Source of the DNA: a virus
Taxonomy: Duplodnaviria; Caudoviricetes
Length of the DNA: 33,662 nucleotides
Reading direction: 5' to 3' (one strand)
IMG/VR virus record: IMGVR_UViG_3300006802_000284
Coordinates: 1 to 33,662 of that record
The notes below the pieces were generated by a model. The model saw nothing but the letters and a program-made list of their open reading frames with translations. It made no database searches and was not told the DNA's origin. The position numbers and the translations under genes were made by a program. Positions 1,969-33,662 of the stretch are shown piece after piece. Numbering within the stretch: the first letter of the stretch is position 1; the number at the start of each line of letters is the position of its first letter.

Positions 1969-2373
1969 TCAGAGCTTAAAGATTTTGTTAGCGCCGTTAT
2001 CCCAAGAGATAATAATGTCACCGCCGTTAGGCGTAACAGGGAGTTGCGAAGCAGAATCCAAGTACACCATCAGAGTGCTGGAGGCAGAAGTACCTGCTTC
2101 AGTGTAAACAATAAGCGCAGCAATAGCACTGCCAGCCGCTACCGCAGTAAGCGTGGTATCGTCAGCATCGAATACACCAGCAGTTGCCGTCTTACTGGTA
2201 AGAGCAGGGGAGGTGTGAACTCGGTTAGCCGCAGCAATATCATCGATAGAAGTATGTGCCGCGCTGAACGTATATCCCGAGGTAACGCCCACTACTTTAA
2301 TTGTTTCACTAAGAGGAGTTCGCGTACCTTTCAGTGCTTCCTCTCGGTAGTTGTCATACATTGCATCAGCCAT
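1969..2373 (-). CDS. Conserved phage virion structural protein (minor tail/fibre-associated)
   Basis: AGGAGG RBS. Sequence MADAMYDNYREEALKG...GVFDADD...LPVTPNGGDIIISWDNGANKIFKL is typical of small structural proteins found upstream of fibre genes. Confidence 0.7.
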   Translation of the reverse strand: MADAMYDNYREEALKGTRTPLSETIKVVGVTSGYTFSAAHTSIDDIAAANRVHTSPALTSKTATAGVFDADDTTLTAVAAGSAIAALIVYTEAGTSASSTLMVYLDSASQLPVTPNGGDIIISWDNGANKIFKL

Positions 2374-2390
2374 TTATTCCTCCTTTAGAA

Positions 2391-3086
2391 TTAAGTTAGA
2401 CCGTCTTTGACGTATTTCATTTTATTGAATGCAGTCCAGAATTCTTCTGCATACTGGGAGTCAGCGTAGTCCGAGAAGTACGGGCCACCTTCCGTATAAT
2501 GGACAGCTTTGGCATCTTTAATATGCCGGTACAAACCGACAAGCCAATTCCATTCTAACGGCAAAGAACCAATATCTTCTTCATTGCACCATTTGAATTG
2601 ATGCAAATCCAAACCATTGGCTCTATCGACGTAGCCTGGTGTTAATCTCTCGCACGCTACGTGTTCGCAATTAAACAGCATTAAAGAGGACCAGCACTTC
2701 TTTTCGTATACGGTTTGTTCCGTACCCAAGAACTTTGTGCCCGCCTTGAATACATCCGGGTTGTGCTTGCAAACTTGCACTGCGTACTGTTTATCTCTGA
2801 GATACCAGAGGTTCGCAATATCATCCAGAAACACGAAGTCGCAATCTACGAATATACCATAACCACGGTAATTTTGCAAGTAAGGAACTAGCCAACGAGT
2901 AAAGGCGAACTCGTTGGATTGCTTAGGATGTCGGGGTCTGGTAAGAGGCAGTTGGCTGCGTTTTAGCGGTATAATCTCGACAGGCACAGAAGAGGTTTCT
3001 AGCAGGCTAGAAGCACAGGTCCAGAAGGCTCCAGCTTCTACAGGATCGTATCCAATATAAACAGGGATTTTCTCTGCTTTATTCAT
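2391..3086 (-). CDS. GT-A fold glycosyltransferase (GT8-like nucleotide-diphospho-sugar transferase)
   Basis: IPVYIGYD N-terminus, DxD motif (FVDCDF), WSSLMLFN, WNWLVG and HYTEGGP motifs. Confidence 0.85.
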   Translation of the reverse strand: MNKAEKIPVYIGYDPVEAGAFWTCASSLLETSSVPVEIIPLKRSQLPLTRPRHPKQSNEFAFTRWLVPYLQNYRGYGIFVDCDFVFLDDIANLWYLRDKQYAVQVCKHNPDVFKAGTKFLGTEQTVYEKKCWSSLMLFNCEHVACERLTPGYVDRANGLDLHQFKWCNEEDIGSLPLEWNWLVGLYRHIKDAKAVHYTEGGPYFSDYADSQYAEEFWTAFNKMKYVKDGLT

Positions 3087-3553
3087 TTAATGGCCTCTAC
3101 TCGCATATCTCTTGTTGGGATTTTAAACTGAGCAGTACCTTTTACTATATTTTTAAAGCCAGCCAGTTGGAGTTCGTATGCAAGCGTTTCTGGAGTGTAA
3201 CCCCAGTGGTGACAATGGAACTCATTCTTTAGGTCCGGGTTGCCGTAGAAAGCCCACATACCCATTTGTGGGGTTTCTTCCATGAGAAAATGGAAAGCCG
3301 CTTTCTTTAGATCCGGGCATTCAAGGATGATTTTACCTCCTGGTTCAAGCACCCGCCTCCATTCGTTCAGCATTGGCTGGACTTCCCATTTGTAGAAATG
3401 CTCTATAACGTGAATAGCTATGATCTCCTGTACGCTATTGTCTTCAGCAAAGCTCAGTTTACGGAGATCGCAAATGATATCCGCACCCGGAGCTAGGTCC
3501 ACTCCCGTGTAGCCCTCAAGGGGCCGATTGCCTGAACCTAGATTGAGCTTCAT
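3083..3553 (-). CDS. Class I SAM-dependent methyltransferase
   Basis: MKLNLGSG motif I, HVIEH, WRRVLEPGG. Start placed at the ATG (3553) that overlaps the upstream TGA (ATGA). Confidence 0.88.
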   Translation of the reverse strand: MKLNLGSGNRPLEGYTGVDLAPGADIICDLRKLSFAEDNSVQEIIAIHVIEHFYKWEVQPMLNEWRRVLEPGGKIILECPDLKKAAFHFLMEETPQMGMWAFYGNPDLKNEFHCHHWGYTPETLAYELQLAGFKNIVKGTAQFKIPTRDMRVEAIK

Positions 3554-4443
3554 GCAATCCCCCGAATTGCCGCCGCCCATTTTGCAGCAATAGTTTCTGG
3601 GCTGTATTTGATCTGGATCATTTTCTGAGCCTCCTGCATCTCTTCCGTAAAGTCGATACTTGCCATGTATTCCATAGCTTCAGCGTTGTCAAAGTCCTTT
3701 TCAAAGTACCGGATGCCAGCCCTCCCGAGGTCAACTACGGCAGGTATGGGATCAGTAATCACAGGGAGTCCGCACCAGAGCGCCTCAAGAACCCTGTTGG
3801 CACTCTTGGCATTCTTGCCCTGTCGGTACGGAAGAATAGCAAAGGAGTTCCTCTGAGAAGCCTCTCCCACGATTCCGGGGTGCCACGAACTAAGATGGAC
3901 TAGATTATTCTGGAAATGCTGCGGAAGCTCAATGTTTCCGGGCATAGCTACCTCTAGGGAGTAGTTGCCTGTGTACACTTGGTACAGCCCGTCGATATTC
4001 ATTACCTGTCCGTACCAGAGGAACGAAAGCGGCTTATCCTTCCTGTAAGCCTGCTGTCGGGATATAACCGGATCCTCAATAATAACTGAATCCTTGGCAG
4101 TGGCCTCCTTAATCCGAGCCTGCATTTCGGAGGAGTTGCAAACAATCAGGTCCGCAACACTGCACATACGACGGTAGTGCTCTCCCATCTTGGTGTCGAA
4201 GTGGTCATCGCACACATCAAAGATGACCTTCTGGCCCCGTTCTTTACAGAACCAAGCATAAGACCAATCGTTGTATGTCCAGTGCTTTGAGAATATAGTT
4301 ACGGCTGAATCCGGGCTGGCTATGCTATTAACAGAGCACTGAATCATGTGCTGACTCAGGAACTGACTAGGAGCCAACACCCGGTAACGGTACGAAGCAA
4401 TACCCTCATTTCCCCCTGTAACAAAAGAAACCTTTGGCATCAT
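3550..4443 (-). CDS. GT-B fold glycosyltransferase (GT4-like)
   Basis: ASYRYR N-terminal motif, FDVCDD, ADLIVCNS, and C-terminal KSANRVLEALWCGLPVIT (nucleotide-sugar-binding E...G.PV pattern). Confidence 0.75.
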   Translation of the reverse strand: MMPKVSFVTGGNEGIASYRYRVLAPSQFLSQHMIQCSVNSIASPDSAVTIFSKHWTYNDWSYAWFCKERGQKVIFDVCDDHFDTKMGEHYRRMCSVADLIVCNSSEMQARIKEATAKDSVIIEDPVISRQQAYRKDKPLSFLWYGQVMNIDGLYQVYTGNYSLEVAMPGNIELPQHFQNNLVHLSSWHPGIVGEASQRNSFAILPYRQGKNAKSANRVLEALWCGLPVITDPIPAVVDLGRAGIRYFEKDFDNAEAMEYMASIDFTEEMQEAQKMIQIKYSPETIAAKWAAAIRGIA

Positions 4444-5945
4444 TTGAACCTCCTTGCGTACTTAGCCAAATCCTTAGCCACCTTCTTGATGGCGTAATCC
4501 CACGGTTCCTCTTCGTTCTGATGGTACTGGGTAACTGAATTATAGAACGGATTCAGAGTATCCTTCTTGCCGTACCTCCATGCGTGCCCATGAGGCGTAA
4601 GTGTCCAACAGGGTGCGTCCATACTTCCTCGTACATGCACGATACTGGTGTTCACGCAGATAACCAGATCACAGGCTGCGGCCAGTGCCATACTGTGCTC
4701 GTAATCTTGGTTCTCCACTACATCCGGCCAGTGATGCACGTATATCCCGTGGTCCTTCAGAATCTTCCCTGTAGCTCCCTCCGCTCCTTTCCAGTACTCC
4801 AAGGAGACGAAAGTTACGTCCTGCTCAAGGATAGGGAGCCACGCATCCAGAGGAATGCTCCTGAGATCCGCTCGGGTTTTCTTTCTCCCTCCAGTCCAAG
4901 CAATGCCTACAATGGGCCTGCCTATCTGCCCGGATTGCTCCTGCATCTTGTGCAGGGTCTTCCTGTAGAACTCTGTTAGCTCAGAGTTAGGCTTCAGCCA
5001 TCCAGCGTTAATCCTGCGCTTGCTGTGGTACCATCGCGGAAGCGAGCCAATCCCGTCCTTGTAGTCCACAGGAATAGTTTCGTTCCACTCTGGGATGGTT
5101 TTGCTTTTGCGGGTAGGGAAGATATCTACGATATCCGGGAAGGATCTCTGGATAGCCGTGAATAGCCGGGGATGCACATCCAGTACAATTCGGGCAGTAG
5201 GGTACTGCTTTTGAATCTCTGGAACGAACTGGAGGAAAAGAAGCTCGTCGCCTATCCCCTGTTCCCCATGCAGTACAATGGTCTTTCCTGAGAGATCCTG
5301 TCCTTTCCAGAACGTAGCTTCCTCGCCCTTGGCATTCTTGTAGTACCGGATAATTCTTTCTCCAGTCTCGAAGCCATTAGCGTAGTGCTGGAATCCCTCC
5401 TCGTACTGCTTATCCTCCATCAGGAGAAGGCCGAGGTTCCATGACCCTTGGGGGTGACTTGGTAAGAGTCTCAGGCATTCCCTGCCGTAGGGAATACCCT
5501 TCTCTGGGTAACCCTCGTTAACCCATAGGGCACAGAGGTTAGCTAGTACATCGGGATGGTACTCTACCTTGAGAGCTTTCTCGAAGGCTGCCCGAGCCTC
5601 TGAGTTCATGTGCTCGTTGCGGTACGCAGCCCCTAAGTTGTTGAACCATTCCAGTACGGGCTTACGAGTACTCTGGATAAGGAACTCCAGCACATTGATG
5701 GCTAGACCGTTACGGTTAGTCTGCATGTACAGGGTAGCGAGTTGGTATCGAACGATACTATTTGAAGGGTTGCGATTAAGGAGTTCAGCGTAAATGCTTT
5801 CTGCTCTTTCAACGCATTGGGCGGCTTGTTTGGGATCGAACTGCCCCTTGCGGGCAGTCATTTGGATAAACGATTGATGGTAGTGCGAGGCTTCAATCAA
5901 ACCTTGTTTGTATTCATCATCCATTCCCTGGATATCTTCTTCCAC
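4440..5945 (-). CDS. TPR-repeat glycosyltransferase (TPR plus GT9-like catalytic domain)
   Basis: N-terminal TPRs (WFNNLGAAY, ANLCALW, WNLGLLL), then EQGIGD, SLPR, VGIAWTGG, RSIPL and CDLVICVNTSIVH. Confidence 0.85.
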   Translation of the reverse strand: MEEDIQGMDDEYKQGLIEASHYHQSFIQMTARKGQFDPKQAAQCVERAESIYAELLNRNPSNSIVRYQLATLYMQTNRNGLAINVLEFLIQSTRKPVLEWFNNLGAAYRNEHMNSEARAAFEKALKVEYHPDVLANLCALWVNEGYPEKGIPYGRECLRLLPSHPQGSWNLGLLLMEDKQYEEGFQHYANGFETGERIIRYYKNAKGEEATFWKGQDLSGKTIVLHGEQGIGDELLFLQFVPEIQKQYPTARIVLDVHPRLFTAIQRSFPDIVDIFPTRKSKTIPEWNETIPVDYKDGIGSLPRWYHSKRRINAGWLKPNSELTEFYRKTLHKMQEQSGQIGRPIVGIAWTGGRKKTRADLRSIPLDAWLPILEQDVTFVSLEYWKGAEGATGKILKDHGIYVHHWPDVVENQDYEHSMALAAACDLVICVNTSIVHVRGSMDAPCWTLTPHGHAWRYGKKDTLNPFYNSVTQYHQNEEEPWDYAIKKVAKDLAKYARRFK

Positions 5946-22262: not shown

Positions 22263-22598
22263 TCACTTGAACCCATCATGCTCAAGGGAGTAATGGTTGG
22301 CATCCTTGAATCGTCCACCCCAGGATCCACCCATTGACTCCCACTTCTCTCCCAGAGGCTTGTGTGCCTCTCCATCCGTAACGTACTTGCCGTTGACGAA
22401 CAGATTGAGATCCATTGCGAGTCTCAACTTATGGCAAGAGTTCCTAGCTCCGTACCCCATCTTGACTCCCAGTTCTCCGTGCAAGCGTGGATCCCTGTAG
22501 GCATCCCCTAGAGTGATCTCGTAGCCTTTCTCGTATGCCCAGAGAATCAACTCTGCAATCATCTTGGAGAACAGCTTCTGCTTCTGGGAGAGTGTCAT
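22263..22598 (-). CDS. Endolysin, M15 family (L-Ala-D-Glu-type) peptidase
   Basis: AYR, SCHKLRLAMD (SxHxxxxAxD), WGGRF.DANH. Confidence 0.9.
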   Translation of the reverse strand: MTLSQKQKLFSKMIAELILWAYEKGYEITLGDAYRDPRLHGELGVKMGYGARNSCHKLRLAMDLNLFVNGKYVTDGEAHKPLGEKWESMGGSWGGRFKDANHYSLEHDGFK

Positions 22599-24397
22599 TG
22601 ATCTGCCTCGACTTGGGCAGGAGCAGTACCAATGTTCACGTTGAAGAACTTCTTAGCCAATTCATCCCTTGATCCGTATCGGATAGTACCGTGCTTATCA
22701 ACTATTTCGAGAACACCCATTACTCCGTTAAGAGCAGCAGCAGTATTGTTAGCCCTTTGATCCGTAGATACAAACACTCCGTCCTTCCCGTATCTAAGGT
22801 TTCCGATTAGAGGCCCTATATCTCTTTGAAGATCCTCTATCTGCTGTTGTGCAACCTTACGGATATTCTCGGTAGCTGTTTCCGGATTAGGAAGATTCCC
22901 TACAACGTTTGCAATTTCAGGGCGTACAATTTTTAAGTACGCTTTTGGTCGTTCGTTTCGATTAATTAGAGATACCTCTCCAGCTACTTGACTGAGAAAA
23001 TTCTGGAAGACTTGAGGATCTTGCATAGCAATAGCTGGATCAATTCCTGCAATTGACGCAGCAGTGGCAACATTGTTGAGAGCAGGATCTACCGGATTTC
23101 CTTGCATAACAGAAGAAATTGCTTGTGCTTTATCATTTGTTGTAAGCAATCCACGAATAGATTTTTTGAGTTCAGGCATATCGTTTTCAGTTAATCTCAA
23201 CGAAGCAACAATGCTTTCTTGTATTCCAAAAGGATAACTAAAAATTTTTCCAAGAACAGGATCTTTCAGTATATCTAGATTGTACCTATCTTTTAGAGCT
23301 TTTGCTTGAGAAGCAACTACATCAGCATTGGATCCTTTGCCGTAAAAAGATTCTCTGTACCTGTCAACTTGATCCACCAATCTTCTATAAGTATCGTCAA
23401 TCGATTTCCTATCAAGAAATACAGGCTGGCCTGTATTAGGATCAATAATAGGTTTGTTAAGTTCTGTTAGGATATTTGCAAGAATTCGAGTGCTTCCCGC
23501 ATTAAATTGGTTTTGCGCTTCTGCTGGGTTAGTGGTAAGCAATCCGCTGTCAATAAAAGAATACAACGTATCAGTCAGTTTTTGAGAGTAGTACGCTTCT
23601 CTCCCTGCCATTACGTTATTGTTAAACGTAGCAAACGCTTCTCTTCCCCTATCGGTTTGACCGGCTTGGAATTCATCCCTGCTGAATCCTAGGCGTTCTT
23701 CCGCTCTTTCATCTGCTCGAACGGCTCTTTCTTCTCTTTTGGTTGCTCGGTACTCGTCAAGATGAGCTAGTTCTGATGTCTTTAGAAGAGCCTGTTGATC
23801 TGCTGCTATTAACTCTTGTTCATCCATAAGATCAATAGGTTTAGTAAAAGATATACCAGCTGCTGCTGCATGTGTGTAAACACTTTCTCTTTTCTTGGCA
23901 AGTATTTTCTCCGCCTCAGACATATTAGCCGCAGCCCTTGCTGCTGCTGCATCCAACAACTGGAGTGTCTGAGCGTACTCTTCGTTGATCTGTCCAGCGG
24001 CTCTTTTGTACCGCTCTGCAAACCAAGGTTCTTTCGCAATCTTTGCCCTAGCTCTTGCAGCAAGAACAAGCGCAGCGTTATCTCCGACACCCATAACGCC
24101 CATTTGAGAGGCACGATCCGCTAGTTGATCCAATTCCTTTTCACCAGGACTTTTTGGTTCGTACTGCTGCCCAAGAGGATCCGCAGTGTATCCAAGATTC
24201 ATGCGGAACTCTTTCTCTGCCTCTCTTTTGAAGTCCTGTTCTTTGACAGTGCCATAGAGTTCTACTGCTGGGCCAATTGCACCAGCAATAGCTTTTCCTA
24301 TAATAGCTCCAGACTGATCCACTGCCCCGGCTTGTGGAGTAACAGCGTTCTGTACGGGACTAATCTGAGTAGCTTGAATGCTAAAATCTGTCGCCAT
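22595..24397 (-). CDS. Internal virion (ejection) protein
   Basis: 600 aa, helical and Ala/Gln-rich, GAGG RBS; follows the large internal protein. Confidence 0.6.
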   Translation of the reverse strand: MATDFSIQATQISPVQNAVTPQAGAVDQSGAIIGKAIAGAIGPAVELYGTVKEQDFKREAEKEFRMNLGYTADPLGQQYEPKSPGEKELDQLADRASQMGVMGVGDNAALVLAARARAKIAKEPWFAERYKRAAGQINEEYAQTLQLLDAAAARAAANMSEAEKILAKKRESVYTHAAAAGISFTKPIDLMDEQELIAADQQALLKTSELAHLDEYRATKREERAVRADERAEERLGFSRDEFQAGQTDRGREAFATFNNNVMAGREAYYSQKLTDTLYSFIDSGLLTTNPAEAQNQFNAGSTRILANILTELNKPIIDPNTGQPVFLDRKSIDDTYRRLVDQVDRYRESFYGKGSNADVVASQAKALKDRYNLDILKDPVLGKIFSYPFGIQESIVASLRLTENDMPELKKSIRGLLTTNDKAQAISSVMQGNPVDPALNNVATAASIAGIDPAIAMQDPQVFQNFLSQVAGEVSLINRNERPKAYLKIVRPEIANVVGNLPNPETATENIRKVAQQQIEDLQRDIGPLIGNLRYGKDGVFVSTDQRANNTAAALNGVMGVLEIVDKHGTIRYGSRDELAKKFFNVNIGTAPAQVEADQ

Positions 24398-24406
24398 GTT
24401 TTCCTC

Positions 24407-27400
24407 TTATTTAGAAATGAAACCTTGTTTCTTTGCTTCTTCCAGTCTCTTTTGAGTAGTTGGATTTCGCATAATCGAAGCAGCCTTGCTATCTACTTCT
24501 CCTTGAATACTGTCAGGAATAGTATCCAATAGAACCTGCATGGATACTTTTGCTTGGTTCATTCGAGACACACTGCCATCCCGCAAAGCCGCCTCGTATC
24601 GTATTTCTAGCTCTACAATACTACTGGCGTAATCCCACATCATTTGCTGTTTATTTTTATCCCACTCATTTACTCTGAAAGCAATAGTCTCGTCGCCACT
24701 AGCTATTCCAAGCCATCGCAAGAAATTAGGGTAAGCCTCTGCATTATAATTAGTAATCGCATTTCTTTTTCTATTGATCTCAAATCCCAGTTTCTCTGCA
24801 AAATATGCCTTGGATGCAGTATTCCAACTTGAAGTAAGGCCAGCTAATTCGCTAAAAATAAGATCACCTGCATCAAAAACACCTCCCCAATCTACTTCTT
24901 CGGATTGAGCTTGTCGCAAACTTGCCGCAGCAAAAATCTCTCCAAGGGCAGGGAATACATTGTATACATCCATAACGGTCGAACTAGATACGCCACCATA
25001 AGCTGCAAGAACACTTTGCTTTGTTTCAAGAAAATCTGTGTACAATGTACTTAACAAAGTTCCGTTACCCATTCTAGAAGAGAACGCCGAGTCTATTCCC
25101 AACATTCTGGAAAGAGCATCCACGCCGCCCAAATAAACTTTTTTCATGGCCTCCATGCTGGGAGGCTCTTCTCCAGTTTTTTCCGCTCTTTCAGCCGCTT
25201 GCTTGAAGTAATAATCAGCGATAGCTGTACCACCAGGAAAACCATTAGCGCCCCACAGTCCAATGGACGCGGCAATAAAACGAAGTCTTTCTGCTCCAGT
25301 TAAACTCCGATCAAGGAATAAAAGACTTTCGGTTTGTTTCCATGACCAGTTAAGCATCTGCATCGTTAGCGCAGTAGCATCGTTTCTTTGCCACCAAAAA
25401 CTGTTTCCACTTCGTACATTGTTTTGAAGTTCATTGCTTCTTCCTTGGATCCAAGCAATGTATTCGTCGCTTCCTTGTTTGAACTGACCTTTCTTGGAAA
25501 GATCAATTGCTTCTCTTCGAGCAATACCAAAAGAGGTAGCATTTACGAACTTCTCGCCTTCAAAGGTAGGTATAAGCCCGAACTCAGTTGTTTTGGAGAA
25601 AGCTCTGGAAATAGGACCAGTTAGGTTACCTATGTCCGCAATTGTGTCCAGCGTACCTTCCGTCTTCCCTATCTCTTTAAGATTGGTTCGTTGCCAATCA
25701 TAAAGCATTTTAGTGAAATCGCCTTTCTTATATCCAAGAGCAAGAGAAGCCTCAGTGTCCAGAATTTTAACAACTCTATTATTAAAATCACTAGCACTTG
25801 CCATTAGAATAAACGGAGCATCCTTAAAAGCAGGAATACCGTTAAGCCCGCCTCTTGCCACTGCTAACAAAGCAGAAGATCCTTGCAGCAAAAACTGGCC
25901 TGGATAAATAAAACCCATGTATCTTATATAGTTCAGGGCTTTAAGAAAATTAACAGCATCGTTGTCAGTTACAATAGTTCCTCTTTTGACGGCCTTTGGG
26001 ATCCACTTAGCAAATGACTTATCCCCCAAAGAGTTAGCCATTGCTTTCGCTATATTAGTTTTAGTTTCTAAAACTTTTTTATTGAATCCACTTATGTGCC
26101 CAACCTCTCTAAGGATATGCATCCTTTGAGCTTCTGCTATTGTTTTCTTTTCTAAAGAAAGATTTATACTCGGCCTCCATGTCCCATCGCGGAATCTTTG
26201 TTCCGGACTAGGGAAACGGATATTAGGATCTTTCAGTTCAAGAAACTTTCCGTACTTCGCCATCCAGGAATTAATTTCCTTAATAGCAAAATCATTGAAG
26301 CCTGCCATCCTTGAGGCGTGCGCTATCTGATCTCCAAGAGCCTCGAACGGCGAAATTAAATCAGCGTATTGCTCAAGGTATCCATTAGTAAGATGCTCTC
26401 CCCGAGGACTGTAATACAATCCACCTCTGTACTGATAGGACTGGAGATTAGGATCTCCAAGAATGCCCTCACGAGGCATTGCTTCTCTATCGTACAAATG
26501 CACGAACTCGCTATCAGGATTAAATCTTCCGCGAAGTACTTCGTCCTCTACTCGCTGCAATGTATATCCATCGTGAGCCGCTTGTATGGCAGCATCGTGT
26601 TGTCTACGCAATGCGTTAACCGCCTGAGCATTAGCACCAGGGCCAAGTTTCTGTACAGCAGCTTTGTAATCCTTAAATTCTTTAGAAACAGCTTCCATCC
26701 TCGCTGCATGTTCAAGGGCTTTCTTTCGGCTAGGAAAGATTGCGTGAGTAATCAAATTCCCGTCTATGCCGTCTTGTTTAACCAAATGAGTTTCTGCGTA
26801 CCGGCGCGGCCCGCCTTCAGTATAACCAAGAACGTACTTATTAACGCCAGAAGAAGCTACATCGTTCCGGTTATGAATAATGTGGGTAATCTCATCATCA
26901 CCCCAAGTCATCCTACCGTATACACTAACAACCACATTGTCTTTATTCGCTATGCTGGCGGCGGCAGCAGTCTTATCTACTACTTGCCCATTAGGCAGAA
27001 GAAACTTGGCGTCCTTGGCAATTGGCCCAGTATTCTCTACGATCTTTCCAATGACAGGCTCAGTAAGATTCTTTAAACCGTTAAACTTAATGTGGTTATA
27101 TCCATTAGCTACTATCCAATCTCTTTTAGCTTTGTTCATCAAAACATAATCAAGATCAGAAGCCATACGATAAGCGTAATACGCATCCTTTTCTACAAAG
27201 GTCGCTGGACGCTGATAAATATCAATGAATGCTTGGTTAAGTTCTGATTCAGTCTCAAACCATTTTCCCAGCGTCCTTCCGCTAGGATCTGTTGGATGCG
27301 GAGTACGCATACCTTTAAGAATAACATTCGCTACACTTTTTGCATCTTCTCTGGAAAGTTTAGAGAATTTCTCTAGCAAAGGATCGTACAGTTTTAAGTA

Positions 27401-29080
27401 TCCGGTAGTCTTGAGAGCGCCAGTACCTCCCCCAAACCTTTGACTGCGAGTCCCCGTTACGTTTGTTGAATATCCGTATTTGCCTGCTCCAAAGAGGGTT
27501 CTTATAAAACTTTCATCATCCGGAATCACTGGATCCATCAATTTAGATTCATCAATGGATCTTTTTACTTGGATAAGGAATCCATTACCCCTGGCATTAG
27601 GCACTACTTCGAAGTCAGTGAACCCCCTTGCAGTAGCAGCTTTCCTTGCGCTGTCTTCACTAAAGAAAGGATTGCCAGAACGCGCTTGAAGGTAAACCCC
27701 GATGAACTGGTTGTTCTGTTCCGGAAGATGTTCAAAATAAGCCAAGTCTTTTCCAGAGAATTCTGTGCGCTGGATTCTTGCTTGCTCTGCCGCAATCTGC
27801 ATAGGACTTGCTTCTACCCTGAGCGGCTCAATTGTACGCTCAATACCGCTTTCAATAGTATCTATGTTTCTCTGAACACTAGAAAGAAGTTCGGGATCTT
27901 GGATTCCACGAGGGTAATTCATCTGAGTTAGAGAACGCCAATTAGCCGCAGTAACCTTTCCTGTCTTTATTTGGTTAGCAAGAATTTTAGCGGCAGTGGT
28001 ACTCCCGTATACAGTTTTAACTAGGTCTATTCCAGAAAGCGCAAAAGGAATATCTAAAACAGGGTTATCAATTATATTTTGAAAAGTAGGTTCCATCAGT
28101 ACGCCCATAACTTTACTTTCTGGATCCAAAACCTTGCCAAGCAAATTTTCTTGCTTCCTACCTTCCTCGTCAATTACTGTTTTAATCTCTGCAAGTTCTT
28201 TAAATGCAGGATTATCCAACTGGCCCGTGCCGAGACTGTCGATCAAAAGATTAGTTGCTGCCAAAGGATTGTTTTTAAAGTCATCGCTCAGATAATAATT
28301 TCGAACATTGTCCCTGACAACATTAAGCCTTTTAATAAATTCTTCATCAGAAATACTTGGGTCGAACAATTCAGAAGAAGTAATTTTGGATTGACTTCCC
28401 GGAAAAAAGAATGAAACACCAATACCAGATTTAGCAAAAGAATAAATACTGTTGACATATGTCATCAGCAAATCTTTCCCCATTTTAGCAGCTTTAGGTT
28501 GCGCCGCTGCCGCAAAAGGTGCGCCCATAGGAGCAAGAGCGCCCCCAGCAATTGCCATTGCCTGAGAGTATTGCTGCATCTCTTCTTCGTTTATTCCGTA
28601 AGCCCTGTCATATTCTGACATAACCTCGTTCAAGGCATTATTCAATGCAAGAAGACGAGCATTCTTCTGCGTATCCAAACCCAAATCTTCTGGGGTAGTT
28701 ACTTGACTAAAATCAGAATCTTTAATTACTGCCGCATAATCCGCAGCAAGATTATGGACAACCATATCAGGAATTTCTTGCGGTACTCCGCCTCTAACAA
28801 CTCCTTCTGCTAGATCTACATTTCCTTCTCTTAAAGCAGAGTCAAGGATATTCCCAGAAATTTGTTTGTTACCTTGGTTAGCTTTCTGAACCAACTCTTC
28901 TTTCATAAACGGTTCATCGCCGTTCTTTAATCGAAGACGATTAAGTTCCATTGCATTCTCTGACAGATTTCCTTGAGCTGTACTAAACTGCAAAGCCAAA
29001 GAATCCAAATGCTCAGGAGTGTACAACTCCTTTTGCCTAGGAGGCGTAATAGAATACGTTTGCTCCAGTTCTATAGCCAT
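24407..29080 (-). CDS. Large internal virion (ejection) protein
   Basis: 1557 aa; position matches the podovirus ejection module; no catalytic motif recognised. Confidence 0.65.
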   Translation of the reverse strand: MAIELEQTYSITPPRQKELYTPEHLDSLALQFSTAQGNLSENAMELNRLRLKNGDEPFMKEELVQKANQGNKQISGNILDSALREGNVDLAEGVVRGGVPQEIPDMVVHNLAADYAAVIKDSDFSQVTTPEDLGLDTQKNARLLALNNALNEVMSEYDRAYGINEEEMQQYSQAMAIAGGALAPMGAPFAAAAQPKAAKMGKDLLMTYVNSIYSFAKSGIGVSFFFPGSQSKITSSELFDPSISDEEFIKRLNVVRDNVRNYYLSDDFKNNPLAATNLLIDSLGTGQLDNPAFKELAEIKTVIDEEGRKQENLLGKVLDPESKVMGVLMEPTFQNIIDNPVLDIPFALSGIDLVKTVYGSTTAAKILANQIKTGKVTAANWRSLTQMNYPRGIQDPELLSSVQRNIDTIESGIERTIEPLRVEASPMQIAAEQARIQRTEFSGKDLAYFEHLPEQNNQFIGVYLQARSGNPFFSEDSARKAATARGFTDFEVVPNARGNGFLIQVKRSIDESKLMDPVIPDDESFIRTLFGAGKYGYSTNVTGTRSQRFGGGTGALKTTGYLKLYDPLLEKFSKLSREDAKSVANVILKGMRTPHPTDPSGRTLGKWFETESELNQAFIDIYQRPATFVEKDAYYAYRMASDLDYVLMNKAKRDWIVANGYNHIKFNGLKNLTEPVIGKIVENTGPIAKDAKFLLPNGQVVDKTAAAASIANKDNVVVSVYGRMTWGDDEITHIIHNRNDVASSGVNKYVLGYTEGGPRRYAETHLVKQDGIDGNLITHAIFPSRKKALEHAARMEAVSKEFKDYKAAVQKLGPGANAQAVNALRRQHDAAIQAAHDGYTLQRVEDEVLRGRFNPDSEFVHLYDREAMPREGILGDPNLQSYQYRGGLYYSPRGEHLTNGYLEQYADLISPFEALGDQIAHASRMAGFNDFAIKEINSWMAKYGKFLELKDPNIRFPSPEQRFRDGTWRPSINLSLEKKTIAEAQRMHILREVGHISGFNKKVLETKTNIAKAMANSLGDKSFAKWIPKAVKRGTIVTDNDAVNFLKALNYIRYMGFIYPGQFLLQGSSALLAVARGGLNGIPAFKDAPFILMASASDFNNRVVKILDTEASLALGYKKGDFTKMLYDWQRTNLKEIGKTEGTLDTIADIGNLTGPISRAFSKTTEFGLIPTFEGEKFVNATSFGIARREAIDLSKKGQFKQGSDEYIAWIQGRSNELQNNVRSGNSFWWQRNDATALTMQMLNWSWKQTESLLFLDRSLTGAERLRFIAASIGLWGANGFPGGTAIADYYFKQAAERAEKTGEEPPSMEAMKKVYLGGVDALSRMLGIDSAFSSRMGNGTLLSTLYTDFLETKQSVLAAYGGVSSSTVMDVYNVFPALGEIFAAASLRQAQSEEVDWGGVFDAGDLIFSELAGLTSSWNTASKAYFAEKLGFEINRKRNAITNYNAEAYPNFLRWLGIASGDETIAFRVNEWDKNKQQMMWDYASSIVELEIRYEAALRDGSVSRMNQAKVSMQVLLDTIPDSIQGEVDSKAASIMRNPTTQKRLEEAKKQGFISK

Positions 29081-29514
29081 TAGAGCCTTCCCTGTTTCGC
29101 CGCGAGTCCGAAATTAGCAAGCTGACCAAAAATATCCGACGCTGCTCCATATGTACCAGCACGGCCTTGCGATCTAGCGGCATTAGCCAAGAACTGTGTT
29201 TGGTTCATTGCTGCTTGCTGCTGCATACCCTGGAATCCAAGAGCAGCCCCTGCTTGGCTTTGAATGCTGCCGATAGCGCCAGCTTGTCCTGATCCCATAG
29301 CTCCGGTGTTGGTAGCGGATTGCTGTACCATAGCGGAACGGATACGAGCCTCTCTAATTGCCTGCACAGCACTCTTTCGGTTCTGCTCCATCTGGATGGC
29401 AGTCTCTACTTTCTGTGCCCTACGCTGCTCCTTAGCTGCGTCCTTGGCTTCTTTTGCAGCCATGACTTGAGAGCCTACACTCCCTACTAGACTTGCAATA
29501 ATTGCAACACCCAT
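29080..29514 (-). CDS. Small internal virion protein (T7 gp14-like)
   Basis: Hydrophobic Gly/Ala-rich N-terminus and Gln/Ala-rich body; GAGGT RBS. Confidence 0.7.
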   Translation of the reverse strand: MGVAIIASLVGSVGSQVMAAKEAKDAAKEQRRAQKVETAIQMEQNRKSAVQAIREARIRSAMVQQSATNTGAMGSGQAGAIGSIQSQAGAALGFQGMQQQAAMNQTQFLANAARSQGRAGTYGAASDIFGQLANFGLAAKQGRL

Positions 29515-29805
29515 TTAATGTACCTCGAACTTAAACAATTGATAAACATTCTGATCTATTCCTACCATGTATTTCTCGGTAGGATAGAATCCCAGCATAG
29601 CCATGAACTTCTCTTGCTTCTCCGATACCCAAGGAGCATACAAGGGTTCTTTAATCATCATCTGCAACTGACAGACTTGGCCCATCAAGCACTTGTATAC
29701 GGTGTGAGTCCACCTCTTTATTGTGCAGTGCAGGATAACTTCACCAGTAGGCGCTCGATCTCCCGAGATCCTCCAGTACAGATTCTCATCCAGTACGGAC
29801 ATCAT
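29515..29805 (-). CDS. Hypothetical protein at the T7 gp13-like position (possible degenerate GNAT fold)
   Basis: ATGA overlap with the nozzle C-fragment; KFMAMLGF motif; start uncertain. Confidence 0.55.
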   Translation of the reverse strand: MMSVLDENLYWRISGDRAPTGEVILHCTIKRWTHTVYKCLMGQVCQLQMMIKEPLYAPWVSEKQEKFMAMLGFYPTEKYMVGIDQNVYQLFKFEVH

Positions 29806-30089
29806 ACTTCGCGGTTCCATCCTAGTTCCACGCTCCAACCTAGAAGCTGGCAGTCCTTCCCTGGTTCTGTCCTGAATCGAAAAGACAACGCTCTACCTTT
29901 ACCGCGTATCTTGTTACGAGTAGTAATAACAGATAGTCCGTCGCTAAGGCTGCTGTTAGTTTCCTCAACAAATAAAGGTTGCCTAAAACGATAGGCTTGG
30001 AACTCGCTTCCCCAACGATTAGAGTCTTCGGAGGTTGTCCATTCCCATCGAGCCTGTACTAGACATGATGATTGATTCTGTAGTGCCAT
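29802..30089 (-). CDS. Tail tubular/nozzle protein, separately encoded C-terminal fragment
   Basis: NQSSCLVQARWEWT..S.RWG..FQAYRF...VITTRNKIRGKGRALSFRF..EPGKDCQLLGW is the characteristic C-terminus of this protein family; TAAGGT RBS. Confidence 0.8.
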   Translation of the reverse strand: MALQNQSSCLVQARWEWTTSEDSNRWGSEFQAYRFRQPLFVEETNSSLSDGLSVITTRNKIRGKGRALSFRFRTEPGKDCQLLGWSVELGWNREV

Positions 30090-30098
30090 GTTATTACC

Positions 30099-31805
30099 TT
30101 AAACAGGAGTTCCGTCTGGGAATGCAGCAGATGGAGGAGTAAAATTGCTAGTATATCTAGCCACACCTTTAGTTATTCGCATCTCTTCCATCCATCCATT
30201 AAAGCTATAACCAATCACATCAAATGTTTCATGGGCTGCGCTATCTGCTCCCCAACGAAATCTTCCAGTTGTATACGAATACGTATCGGTCAACTCTAAT
30301 CCAGTTTTTTGACCATCTATATACATTTTGACAAGATTATTGGATTTAACAACAGCAACATGATACCAGACGCTTGTTGATAGTGTAAAAGAAGAGCTTA
30401 GATACGTTGAATTTACATTATAGGCAAGAACACCAGCAGGAGAAAGTCTTAGTTGGTTATGCCTAGCATAAAAGTTAATAGGACAAGAATCAAAAATAAT
30501 AGCTAGGTTTGTAGATTTTTGTTTAATATTCAACCAAGTTTCAATAGTCCAATCATCAGAACCAAGCATCATTTCTGTAGTGCCTGGGTTTTCAATACAA
30601 GCGCCTCCACCAGTGGCGACACCAGTTCCAGCAAAACGAACAGAACTTATTCCAAATTTTTTCTCTGATGTGTCTATATAGGCTTTATTAGTTACAGTCA
30701 CAGGCCAATTATATTTACTGCTATCTTGTATATTGACAGAAGAAAGAGTACCTTCTCCGTGTATAAGCCAGACTACATTATCAAAATAAGGATCCGAGCT
30801 TGTGTACGCAACACTTGCGGTAGTGAAATCGGAACTTCCAGTAATACCTATTTCCCACATCCTACGAATTTGGTGCGGAGTAATCTCGTCAAAATGAACA
30901 AAAGGCTCATCAATTACGTTATTATGCCAATAAATTTTTTGTGTCCCCGGAAACCCTACGCCACTAAGTCCAACACTATTAGTTAAAGTTGACCAAGCAA
31001 CGGCTTGGTATGCTGAGTCTCCAAAATACCCGCCAGCAACAGAACCTATTCCTCCGTTTCTATGGTATGGAATTTGCCTTCCATTTGCGTACAATTTAAA
31101 TACAGGACAGAGGGATGCTTCAGCCGTTTGATAGCTGGTTGGATCACAGTAAACTGCTACAAATTGTACAGTATCGTTTTCAACACAACTAAAGTCTGTT
31201 TCAAAAGAAATTCTGTTAGTGTATGAGTTTCCTCGCCCATTTCCAAATTGCGCCCAAATTTTACCGTTGACTAATTCAACCCATAGCCCGCGATAAACAT
31301 TGTAGCTGCTAGCATCAAGTTTATCCGCAGGAGATCCAAGATTGGATTGAAATAACAAAGCGGTTCCTTGGTTTTGAACCTTCGGTCTTACCCATATACC
31401 AGCAGTAAAAGGTTGCGTACCGTTAATTTCAACATTAGGCGCATAAATAACAGTTCTATCGGCACTCCCTGCTGGAACAAGAGCAGAAGAGTCTTCTGTT
31501 CCTAATGTTACTGCAAAAGTCTTACTCATTGAATTTCTATCGCTGCTATACAGAATAGCTGTGCCGCCAGTTCCTCTATTAGTTTGCGATATAGAGGATG
31601 TTGCTGTAACATCCAACCGCATCTTCCACCAGTACTGAAGTGTAGGTCCGCCTGACCAACCACTTACGTAATCATCATACGGATATCTCCCGCCTGATGG
31701 CGGGCCAAACGGATCCACAGGAGAATCAGCAGAAATGCTTTCAGTCTTGTTGAAATGCACAACAAGCCACGGAGAGTACTTCTGTCGAGATGCACCTATA
31801 CGCAT
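30099..31805 (-). CDS. Two-LamG (concanavalin-like) domain tail module with an N-terminal nozzle-derived peptide
   Basis: SRQKYSPWLVVHFNKTE; LamG1 (FTAGIWV...LYANG...IDE); LamG2 (DPYFDNV...DWTIETW...WYHVAVV...MYIDG...EMRITKGVARYTSNFTPP). Confidence 0.8.
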   Translation of the reverse strand: MRIGASRQKYSPWLVVHFNKTESISADSPVDPFGPPSGGRYPYDDYVSGWSGGPTLQYWWKMRLDVTATSSISQTNRGTGGTAILYSSDRNSMSKTFAVTLGTEDSSALVPAGSADRTVIYAPNVEINGTQPFTAGIWVRPKVQNQGTALLFQSNLGSPADKLDASSYNVYRGLWVELVNGKIWAQFGNGRGNSYTNRISFETDFSCVENDTVQFVAVYCDPTSYQTAEASLCPVFKLYANGRQIPYHRNGGIGSVAGGYFGDSAYQAVAWSTLTNSVGLSGVGFPGTQKIYWHNNVIDEPFVHFDEITPHQIRRMWEIGITGSSDFTTASVAYTSSDPYFDNVVWLIHGEGTLSSVNIQDSSKYNWPVTVTNKAYIDTSEKKFGISSVRFAGTGVATGGGACIENPGTTEMMLGSDDWTIETWLNIKQKSTNLAIIFDSCPINFYARHNQLRLSPAGVLAYNVNSTYLSSSFTLSTSVWYHVAVVKSNNLVKMYIDGQKTGLELTDTYSYTTGRFRWGADSAAHETFDVIGYSFNGWMEEMRITKGVARYTSNFTPPSAAFPDGTPV

Positions 31806-32807
31806 TTAAAATTTACCCAAATCCCACATTGTTTCAATTTCAGTCTGAGTTAACCATCTATTTATATGGCCTATTTGATCTATTTTTCCTACTAAAGAAT
31901 AATTTACAGCGGTTGGTTGTGCACCTGTATTAGCCCCGTATACTCCAAAATTTGTGTTATCGCCAGACGGCCACGAAGTTGTAGTTGCAGTTCCACTAGT
32001 ATAAGCCATACTAATTTTTACACCATTAACCCAAACCTCGAAAACATTATTTGCAGCAACTGTACTTGGAGTACAGTTCACTACTATAAATGTAGGTGTA
32101 TCCAAACTTACTACAGAGACAGGAGATTCGTAAGTTCTTCTATTAGGGAGATCAGGTAATCCTCCATTTCCAAACTCTAATCTCGCTTTTAATGCAGAAG
32201 TTATATAAAATTGTAGTCCACGATAATACATCGTATTATGGGTTCTAAATATATAATTTGTTTTGGCCTTCTCTAAAATAAACCAACCATGCAATGAAAA
32301 AGGAGAAGCAGTCGTAAAACCGGAACCAAGTGCAGTAGATGTTACTAATCCAAATGGTACGTTTGAAGAAGATATCGAAAGATCTTTAATATCTAAAAAT
32401 CTTATGGATTTTTTATCGTAAGTTCCGTTAGTTACTGTACTTACTTGAGATTCGTACCCAAGCCCTATTGTACTTGAACCTGATCTTGTTATTGGGTAAA
32501 TTTGAGTACCAGAATTTATTCCACTGGTGTCAGGATAGTCGAAAGCCTCTGATAATTTCCACCAGTTATCTAAATTTAAAGTAGAAACATAATCATCATA
32601 CGGTTCTCCACCCCCTCCTCCTCCATTATCAGGAGATTCCCAAGGTTGTACCGCAAGATCAGGAACAATTATTTCCGTTCTGTTAAAATACGCGGTTAGG
32701 TAAGGAGCCATTTTATATCTAGATGGAGATATAAAACTTGATTGGCCATCTTGTTGATTTTGAAAATTTTGTGTATTCCAAGATTGTATCCTACGAATAG
32801 GTTTCAC
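31806..32807 (-). CDS. Single-LamG tail module with an N-terminal nozzle-derived peptide
   Basis: SRYKMAPYLTAYFNRTE, Gly linker, LamG (FSLHGWF...VWVNG...GKIDQI...LTQTEI); GTGA overlap with the upstream stop. Confidence 0.78.
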   Translation of the reverse strand: MKPIRRIQSWNTQNFQNQQDGQSSFISPSRYKMAPYLTAYFNRTEIIVPDLAVQPWESPDNGGGGGGEPYDDYVSTLNLDNWWKLSEAFDYPDTSGINSGTQIYPITRSGSSTIGLGYESQVSTVTNGTYDKKSIRFLDIKDLSISSSNVPFGLVTSTALGSGFTTASPFSLHGWFILEKAKTNYIFRTHNTMYYRGLQFYITSALKARLEFGNGGLPDLPNRRTYESPVSVVSLDTPTFIVVNCTPSTVAANNVFEVWVNGVKISMAYTSGTATTTSWPSGDNTNFGVYGANTGAQPTAVNYSLVGKIDQIGHINRWLTQTEIETMWDLGKF

Positions 32808-33662
32808 AGAAGATACCCCGTTATAAGATAGGCGGCTGCGTCTACTGCTGACCAGTCCTCAAAGTTTTCATTATTGTAATAGAATAAAGACATTGAGTAC
32901 GTATGAGAATCCTGTTCTTCAAGCCCTGTATATCGGAAATCAGAGCCAACTACGTTTCTATATGCTACTGGCGTCGTTAAATATCCTGTTACTCTAGGAG
33001 TAGCGATAAAAGTAACTGAAAGATCGTAAAACTTGAAGCGACTCCATGCAGGCATAGAGAGATCCAGGATCAATTCATGCGTGAACTTTTGAGGCGCATC
33101 CGCATTGTATTCTTGCTGGTACAACCAACGGCAGCGATACGATGCGTCATCGTATATACCGATAGCGTTGTTCTTGCAGTTGTACGGAATAGCGTTATAT
33201 AGACGCTGAATCGTGTACTCAGTCAAGGATTGGAATTCAATACCTGTCTGCCCTACGCCCAGAGCAAAGATACCGTTACGGCTCCAGTACAGCACTGCAT
33301 CCGGCGTGACAACAATACTGTCGGTAGACAAAGCCCCATTGTTCGTGAGGAACTTTGACTGGTATTCGGTAGCCGTAAAGCCCCTATCTCCCCCAGCAAT
33401 AGACCATACGCCATTGTCCGCAAAGACAAGAAGCTCGCTTTTAAAAGGTATCAGTGCTTTGATGTTTACTGCATCAGGAAGCTGTATGTATCCTCCATCT
33501 GTATCAATCATATCCGAGATATCTTCGGCAGTAGGATCCGCTTCTTGATAGCACTTCCCGAGATCCTGGATTGAGTCCACCAATTTAGAGAACAGCACGA
33601 ATGTGCCAATATGGGGACTCTTGGAGTCTCCTCCAGTTTCCCCAGCAGAACAGGCATAGAAG
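32804..33662 (-). CDS. Tail tubular protein B/nozzle, N-terminal part (5' end outside the window)
   Basis: Frame is open to the window edge (FYACSAG...). CYQEADPTAE..SD.IDTDGG.I..P, LLVFADNGVWSI.G, YWSRNGIF; ends early at AYLITGYLL. Confidence 0.85.
   Translation of the reverse strand, partial: FYACSAGETGGDSKSPHIGTFVLFSKLVDSIQDLGKCYQEADPTAEDISDMIDTDGGYIQLPDAVNIKALIPFKSELLVFADNGVWSIAGGDRGFTATEYQSKFLTNNGALSTDSIVVTPDAVLYWSRNGIFALGVGQTGIEFQSLTEYTIQRLYNAIPYNCKNNAIGIYDDASYRCRWLYQQEYNADAPQKFTHELILDLSMPAWSRFKFYDLSVTFIATPRVTGYLTTPVAYRNVVGSDFRYTGLEEQDSHTYSMSLFYYNNENFEDWSAVDAAAYLITGYLL

What the first reader, a model, noticed from the sequence alone, without database searches (positions are those of the whole stretch)
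29802..33662. Split tail nozzle with a duplicated internal peptide heading two interchangeable LamG modules
Seen in sequence: four adjacent ORFs. The nozzle-like protein stops at ...AAAYLITGYLL (32804). The next two ORFs each begin with the same motif, SRYKMAPYLTAYFNRTE (32723-32673) and SRQKYSPWLVVHFNKTE (31790-31740), followed by a Pro/Gly linker and LamG domains. The fourth ORF starts MALQNQSSCLVQARWEW. Recalled family knowledge: in SIO1/VpV262-type tail tubular proteins these segments form one continuous chain, ...TGY..GD..RxKxAPYxxxxFxRTE-loop-NQSSCLxQxxWxW.... So the gene has been cut on both sides of one conserved beta-segment, and that segment survives in two copies, each fused to a different lectin-like domain. 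Inference: the nozzle assembles from the N-piece, the C-piece and a donated strand (strand complementation). Either LamG protein could then plug into each nozzle subunit, giving a modular or mixed receptor-binding display. I am not aware of this arrangement being described.
Basis: partly seen in the sequence, partly recalled or inferred. Interest (0 to 1): 0.92.

Follow-up and report, generated by a model that had tools for sequence, protein, structure and literature searches.

The report
Three-piece phage nozzle with plug-in strands
In a small group of uncultured phages the tail-nozzle gene is cut on both sides of one short strand, which survives as the head of two lectin-like proteins that are predicted to plug back into the nozzle, likely letting the phage swap or mix surface adhesins.

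Summary
Both outer ORFs match one nozzle family (phrog_8094). The peptide lies in register with the segment that joins them in intact homologues. Contigs from four runs span the junctions with no indels. The N|A|B|C layout recurs in five locus types with swapped passengers and purifying selection.

A complex model places head A as a central strand inside the C-piece sheet (score 0.66, best control 0.37; partner pLDDT about 47). The donated strand therefore completes the C-piece, not the N-piece.

The split is less unprecedented than first thought. Cultured VpV262-like phages have the same free C-piece but keep the strand on the N-piece, and split nozzles are published for RIO-1 and A1002. Not found in nine literature searches: the second cut, and a free strand duplicated onto exchangeable passengers (LamG, one FG-GAP propeller, or none).

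Interchangeability is plausible but not shown. Every locus keeps one long-head and one short-head copy, and head B was not modelled. One relative fuses the short head to C yet carries an in-register internal start, which favours one shared slot.

Verdict: new variant of a known kind.

The parts
32804..33662 (-). Nozzle N-piece, 3' part (gene runs off the window; 625 aa in near-identical L005): propeller and body, ending in the strand AYLITG
   Evidence: phrog_8094 E 3e-76; full ORF in L005; intact sister folds as a nozzle
32804..32807 (-). Upstream cut: GTGA overlap of the N stop and the A start
   Evidence: Same overlap in L001, L003-L006 and L071; pattern scan found 6 contigs, all of this group
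31806..32807 (-). ORF A, 333 aa: 28-residue leader, strand copy 1, Pro/Gly linker, one LamG-like passenger
   Evidence: GC 35.9% against 45.6% in N
32724..32807 (-). A-type N-terminal extension (residues 1-28), basic start conserved; role unexplained
   Evidence: Alignment A1; no confident contact for residues 1-32 in the monomer model
32661..32723 (-). Strand copy 1 (A residues 29-49); residues 33-49 predicted to insert into the C-piece
30099..31805 (-). ORF B, 568 aa: short head, strand copy 2, linker, two LamG-like domains
   Evidence: PF13385 E 5.5e-16, 2 stretches; heads aligned
31740..31790 (-). Strand copy 2 (B residues 6-22); not modelled, homologous to copy 1
   Evidence: 36 of 60 nt identical to copy 1
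29802..30089 (-). Nozzle C-piece, 95 aa: rest of the platform beta-sandwich, lacking one central strand
   Evidence: phrog_8094 E 1e-31; 40-50 synonymous against 9-10 replacement codons versus L003/L004; model contacts at residues 1-7, 53-64, 79-90
22595..29805 (-). Context only: small gene and internal-virion-protein block that follows the nozzle
   Evidence: phrog_8168, phrog_12003; same order in the intact sister L055/L057

Best explanation
The nozzle gene of this phage is cut into an N-piece and a 95-residue C-piece, and the strand that joined them is encoded twice, as the heads of two lectin-like proteins that are predicted to complete the C-piece sheet in trans and so likely hang their passengers on the tail. 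Shown: the cuts, the duplication, the conservation, the passenger swapping. Predicted: the head is a central strand of the platform sandwich, between C strands 53-64 and 79-90, and its end pairs with C residues 1-7, so the passenger would leave from the tip of a variable hairpin. Inferred: each C-piece folds with one head, A or B; N closes the sandwich; six such units form the nozzle; virions therefore carry a mix of A and B. The passengers are likely accessory adhesins, since a fibre-like ORF is also present.
For: Collinearity and invariant K/E. The segment is strand 626-632 of the C-terminal beta-domain in the intact sister model (pLDDT 85.7), which matches T7 gp12 and P22 gp10.

Complex N+C+head A: score 0.66, best of 3 controls 0.37. 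The mark was reached by 116 of 157 solved and 2 of 215 mismatched pairs, only roughly applicable here. Contact agreement at least 61%, partner pLDDT at least 47.

Layout kept in window/L005, L001, L002/3, L004, L006 with different passengers. 18 of 20 profile hits carry the head at the N-terminus, on LamG, FG-GAP or no passenger. The complete intact sister genome has one copy only and no passenger homologue.

L071 fuses the short head to C, has a long-head lectin gene downstream, and has an in-frame GTG exactly at the C start with a strong SD (-9.3 kcal/mol; background 1 of 465 and 1 of 3572 codons). Cultured VpV262, 1.139.A and 1.070.O have a free 95-99 aa C-piece at the same cut, so that cut occurs in propagating phages. 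A1002 shows by cryo-EM that nozzle pieces complement by beta-strands (PMC13730344).
Against: The model is of pieces of a split gene, with alignments that included intact homologues, so it can pass by likeness to the intact fold; it shows no affinity. Partner pLDDT is under 50. Head B, A and B together, and the hexamer were not modelled.

One long-head plus one short-head copy in 6 of 6 locus types, and head-only ORFs that are all long-head (4 of 4), suggest non-equivalent roles. The L071 internal start is one sequence, noticed after the fact. No RNA, protein or virion data. Sugar binding and the host are unknown.
Confidence: 0.66

Rival explanations
1. The heads are not equivalent. The short head (B) is the working donor for C, while the long head (A) takes a fixed subset of positions or a second site that exists only in the hexamer or at the adaptor, using its basic extension. 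Display would be ordered, not mixed.
For: One long plus one short head in 6 of 6 locus types. B type is the one fused to C in L071. A type persists with no passenger in L001, P0021, P0032, P0033. The extension is conserved but unplaced in the monomer model.
Against: Head A itself models into the native slot. P0023 joins an A-like extension to a B-type head. The L071 internal start would make a strand-less C for the long head. The six locus types share ancestry, so the 6 of 6 is not six independent events.
Confidence: 0.22
2. Recoding or RNA processing rejoins the pieces, for example a -1 shift at GTGA making an N-A fusion like VpV262 gp54, so the strand is partly supplied in cis.
For: A lies in the -1 frame and overlaps the N stop in all split loci. 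VpV262 gp54 is an N-strand-passenger fusion.
Against: No slippery heptamer is visible and the codons before the stop vary. GTGA is an ordinary coupling overlap (general knowledge). In L071 the long-head gene is not next to N. No Rfam family at gathering score. B and C have their own conserved ATG. Even so, C would still need its strand in trans.
Confidence: 0.06
3. Only one head matters. The other is a leftover of gene duplication that serves only translational coupling, and its passenger is not on the virion.
For: L001 A has lost its passenger. A heads diverge faster than N (63% against 97%).
Against: Both heads keep the invariant K, P and E and show more synonymous than replacement changes. 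Passengers on both are replaced by other full-length domains rather than decaying.
Confidence: 0.05
4. Assembly error, or a dead nozzle gene broken by an inserted cassette.
For: Passenger genes have lower GC than the nozzle pieces. All split loci are uncultured.
Against: Junctions covered without indels in independent contigs. Same cuts in lineages with 74-94% identical pieces. Strong purifying selection on C.
Confidence: 0.01

Closest known systems
Vibrio phage VpV262 gp54/gp53/gp52 (Zobellviridae; PMC4819975), and Vibrio phages 1.139.A and 1.070.O
   Same: Same nozzle family. Free 95-99 aa C-piece starting at the same place (profile positions 669-671). In VpV262 about 220 extra residues follow the strand, and the paper notes gp52 and suggests it may anchor a fibre.
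   Different: The strand stays on the end of the N-piece (profile to 651-653 in VpV262 and 1.139.A; in 1.070.O by eye). No upstream cut. No second copy detected in VpV262 gp53 or, by the full nozzle profile, in the 1.139.A inserted gene.
Pseudoalteromonas phage RIO-1 gp44/gp40 (PMC4819975)
   Same: Nozzle split into two polypeptides, both found in virions, with inserted genes between them, two of which are structural.
   Different: Cut is far upstream (320 | 393 aa), the strand is in cis in gp40, and the inserted genes carry no copy of it.
Pseudomonas phage A1002 nozzle-rope gp39 / nozzle-base gp42 (PMC13730344)
   Same: Cryo-EM proof that nozzle pieces rebuild the platform and propeller by beta-strand complementation, with one piece carrying an appendage for host-binding parts.
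   Different: Two fixed partners and whole half-domains. No single free strand, no duplicated or alternative donors.
T7 gp12 / P22 gp10 nozzle (PMC6702177)
   Same: Same fold for the intact sister. The platform jelly roll is already built from N- and C-terminal strands.
   Different: One polypeptide.
Klebsiella phage branched RBP systems, conserved docking peptide (PMC13352976, abstract only)
   Same: A short conserved N-terminal peptide anchors exchangeable receptor-binding domains.
   Different: There the peptide docks on a branching domain of another RBP; here it is a former part of the nozzle core.
Donor-strand complementation in chaperone-usher pili (recalled, not read here)
   Same: An N-terminal extension completes a partner's beta-sandwich.
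   Different: Ig fold, polymer growth and a chaperone there; a jelly-roll-like nozzle platform and no polymer here.

Membership tests
Podophage nozzle (tubular tail B; T7 gp12 / P22 gp10 / phrog_8094) | Sequence match to the family | tested here: met
   Both pieces hit phrog_8094, collinear
Podophage nozzle (tubular tail B; T7 gp12 / P22 gp10 / phrog_8094) | Propeller plus platform fold | tested here: met
   Shown for the intact sister L055 (69% to the N-piece): pLDDT 85.7, top 32 Foldseek hits are phage tail complexes
Podophage nozzle (tubular tail B; T7 gp12 / P22 gp10 / phrog_8094) | Single polypeptide | tested here: not met
   Stops and new starts at both cuts
Podophage nozzle (tubular tail B; T7 gp12 / P22 gp10 / phrog_8094) | Hexamer in the virion | not testable with these tools
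   No virion data; hexamer exceeds the complex tool's size limit
VpV262-type split nozzle | Free C-piece of about 95 aa starting just before the SSC motif | tested here: met
VpV262-type split nozzle | Strand kept on the N-piece | tested here: not met
   N stops before the strand; two copies head A and B
RIO-1 / A1002 two-piece nozzle | One cut within the body, platform C-half intact | tested here: not met
   RIO-1 cut at profile 289|337; A1002 domain borders from PMC13730344 section 9
LamG / ConA-like (PF13385) | Profile match, ORF B | tested here: met
   59.5 bits against cut-off 27.6, 2 stretches
LamG / ConA-like (PF13385) | Profile or fold match, ORF A | tested here: inconclusive
   No Pfam hit; fold failed, pLDDT 34.7; Atlas 0.98 to PF13385 clusters; 28% to B domain 1
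LamG / ConA-like (PF13385) | Carbohydrate or receptor binding | not testable with these tools
   No ligand or host data
Chaperone-usher donor-strand systems (recalled) | Ig-fold pilin with chaperone and usher | tested here: not met
   Acceptor is a phage nozzle platform; it works alike but is not a member
Zobellviridae | Formal placement by whole-genome or marker phylogeny | not tested
   Best cultured nozzle matches include CVT22, PA11, ICP2, CW02 at 37% or less; gene order is similar

The most novel reading that the evidence does not exclude
A roughly 20-residue piece of the nozzle core has become a portable plug. Any domain fused to it (LamG, FG-GAP propeller, or nothing) is built into one of six nozzle slots, and two co-expressed plugs compete, so one genotype makes virions with different adhesin mixtures. 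L071 would tune the mix with an internal start that makes a strand-less C-piece.
Probability: 0.45. Interest if true: 0.85.

Novelty: new variant of a known kind. Interest (0 to 1): 0.7.

Why it matters
It would be a third way to attach host-binding domains to a podophage tail, besides fibre anchors and RBP branching peptides, and one where the anchor is needed to finish the nozzle itself. It gives a testable role to the free C-piece that Hardies et al. noted in VpV262. It also suggests a stepwise route: free C-piece, passenger after the strand, strand freed and duplicated. If the slots are shared, virion-to-virion variation in adhesins arises without any DNA change, and the short head is a candidate display tag for phage tails.

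Tried and rejected
- Fold of ORF A failed (pLDDT 34.7, 5 sequences) and was not searched further.
- Sequence search of solved structures with the intact sister: 0 hits.
- No RNA holder listed; no evidence either way.
- Rfam: 0 matches.
- Repeat search: only a 30-nt, 80% pair in the A/B linkers and short chance pairs; no terminal repeats of a mobile element.
- Genome-contig scan: no relative. DNA pattern for L071-like heads: 0.
- Cultured phages: head B gave 3 weak hits (E 8-10), all in nozzle genes; two checked are split elsewhere, 231 | 683 aa. Head A gave only chance hits.
- Earlier scan notes: nothing.
- Two of 20 head-profile hits (P0029, P0031) were dropped as repeat-driven false matches. 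P0012 was set aside as a likely fragment of an intact gene.
- Trees do not settle the order of events. The five N|A|B|C rows form a clade (100/100). L071 is unresolved; one origin of all cuts is not rejected (AU p 0.44). A weak C-piece tree nests the intact sisters among free C-pieces (support 84-90). One search gave only a quick tree.
- A homologue search with B residues 1-45 found 2 proteins.
- The last step (short self-match of the strand to the 1.139.A inserted gene) did not run.
Full report
OBSERVATION. The window is a virus record with a T7-like replication block; the five runs holding half or more of its sampled words are freshwater metagenomes. N (285 aa visible) and C (95 aa) match the two ends of phrog_8094. 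In intact homologues the N and C matches lie about 91-130 nt apart in one frame, and the gap is the same K..P[YW].....F.RTE segment followed by a variable loop. K and E of the segment are invariant in 43 intact nozzles. Contigs from 4 of 4 runs laid show no insertion or deletion; two runs span all three junctions. A carries 28 residues before the motif, B five. B has two PF13385 stretches. A has no Pfam hit, is 28% identical to B domain 1, and looks LamG-like to the Atlas.

DISTRIBUTION. Of 50 viral loci found with N, 6 stop at the same place with the same GTGA overlap, 43 read through both sites, and 1 ends inside the junction. One search added 11 contigs, all intact, including sisters L055-L058 at about 67%. 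One search gave 8 metagenome loci: 3 N|A|B|C (same lineages), 1 partial, 3 intact, and L071. A further 17 loci were all intact with one copy (one repeats L011). The split forms fall into five locus types, with pieces 74-94% identical to the window apart from the near-identical L005. Passengers are swapped while heads stay: L003 A has two LamG domains, L004 A one, L001 A none (60 aa, head only). Contigs in the same runs keep the C start or the B head but continue with other sequence (loose ends). Against L003 and L004, C shows 40-50 synonymous and 9-10 replacement codons, the B head 9-10 and 4, the A core 10 and 3-4. A profile of the heads found 20 proteins among 1.84 billion; 18 carry it at the N-terminus and 2 are false. 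Ten of the 18 match PF13385 at E 0.01 or better (3 below the curated cut-off), one is an FG-GAP propeller, three are head only, four have no Pfam match. Ten of 12 short C homologues start with Met just before the SSC motif; only 1 of 29 correctly anchored intact genes has a start codon in that register. The complete intact sister genome has one copy of the segment and no passenger homologue.

STRUCTURE. The intact sister folds well (pLDDT 85.7) and the segment is strand 626-632 of the C-terminal beta-domain, followed by a hairpin. The model matches nozzles of A4, Pa223, T7 and P22. In T7 this platform is a jelly roll that binds the adaptor (PMC6702177, passages). The complex of N (from L005), C and A residues 1-55 scored 0.66 against a best control of 0.37; the mark was reached by 116 of 157 solved and 2 of 215 mismatched pairs, roughly applicable; runs agree in at least 61% of contacts; partner pLDDT is at least 47. 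Residues 33-49 lie between C 53-64 and 79-90 and touch C 1-7; N contributes residues 50 and 52. The 0.37 control is the one with N replaced, where the head still had 101 confident contacts, which fits binding to C. Unrelated partners scored 0.00. Pieces of a split gene can pass by likeness, and my alignments included intact homologues, so this shows fit, not binding. Head B was not modelled.

L071. Here N stops at the same GTGA, the short head is fused to C (123 aa; cluster of 3 from 3 sources), and a long-head lectin-like gene follows. Inside the fused gene an in-frame GTG sits exactly at the usual C start with an SD of -9.3 kcal/mol; as strong a start plus SD occurs at 1 of 465 other codons of that contig and 1 of 3572 nozzle codons. 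If used, it makes a strand-less C for the long head. It is one sequence, noticed after the fact.

MECHANISM. Shown: cuts, duplication, conservation, passenger exchange. Predicted: the head is a central strand of C. Inferred: the four closely packed genes are co-translated; each C folds with one head; N supplies the remaining platform strands; passengers project from the hairpin tip; six slots are shared between A and B. A fibre-like ORF with a conventional-looking N-terminus (judged by eye) in the near-identical G005 suggests the passengers are accessory. Against full interchangeability: one long and one short head in 6 of 6 locus types, only long heads without passengers (4 of 4), and a conserved extension with no place in the monomer model. 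For it: A models into the native slot, P0023 is a hybrid head, and the L071 start.

COMPARISON WITH KNOWN SYSTEMS. PMC4819975 (passages) reports the RIO-1 nozzle as two virion polypeptides with three inserted genes, and notes that VpV262 encodes the nozzle C-terminus in gp52. I checked the records: VpV262 gp52 (98 aa), 1.139.A (95 aa) and 1.070.O (99 aa) start at the same downstream cut, with the strand left on the N-piece; VpV262 gp54 adds about 220 residues after it. RIO-1, KZY1, 1.253.O, 1.235.O and L039 are cut elsewhere. PMC13730344 (abstract, sections 9 and 12) shows a two-piece nozzle rebuilt by strand complementation. PMC13352976 (abstract) shows peptide-anchored secondary RBPs. PMC9022992 (one term search) gave nothing relevant. 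Pilus donor-strand complementation is recalled, not read. Hardies 2013 was not read and no supplements were opened. Nine searches of an open-access library did not turn up the upstream cut or a duplicated free strand; most subscription papers are outside that library.

VERDICT. Real, conserved and under selection. It works like donor-strand complementation in a nozzle family already known to split. The new part is that a single strand has been freed at both ends and duplicated as an exchangeable anchor. Best explanation 0.66; ordered, non-equivalent heads 0.22. New variant of a known kind; interest 0.70.

Noticed in passing
window 1969-5945 (minus strand): Cassette of a TPR protein, two weak glycosyltransferase-like genes and a methyltransferase next to a holin; could modify virion proteins.
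   Followed up: no
L039:3780-6027: Nozzle split at another site (331 | 416 aa), like RIO-1 but with no inserted genes.
   Followed up: partly
L035:5089-8424: 1112-aa nozzle with an insert of roughly 370 aa before the platform, no Pfam match.
   Followed up: partly
L134:2096-4851 and L135 (Vibrio phages 1.253.O, 1.235.O): Cultured phages with the nozzle split at a further site (231 | 683 aa), the larger piece annotated as hypothetical.
   Followed up: partly
L129 (VpV262) 31595-35712; L131:4968-9930; L132:4959-7357: Free C-piece with the strand left on N; VpV262 and 1.139.A have an unrelated gene between the pieces. Cultured models for testing strand donation.
   Followed up: partly
L071:567-569: In-frame GTG with strong SD at the exact C-piece start inside the head-C fusion gene.
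   Followed up: partly
P0026; P0023; P0021, P0032, P0033: Head fused to an FG-GAP propeller; a hybrid long-extension/short head; head-only proteins of 56-61 aa. Gene context not available.
   Followed up: no
L055:2616-3559: Major capsid gene appears in two frames in L055 but whole in L057; possibly an assembly error.
   Followed up: no
run X3 record 18 on window 29704-33553: A relative with an intact-length nozzle occurs in the same run as the split form.
   Followed up: no
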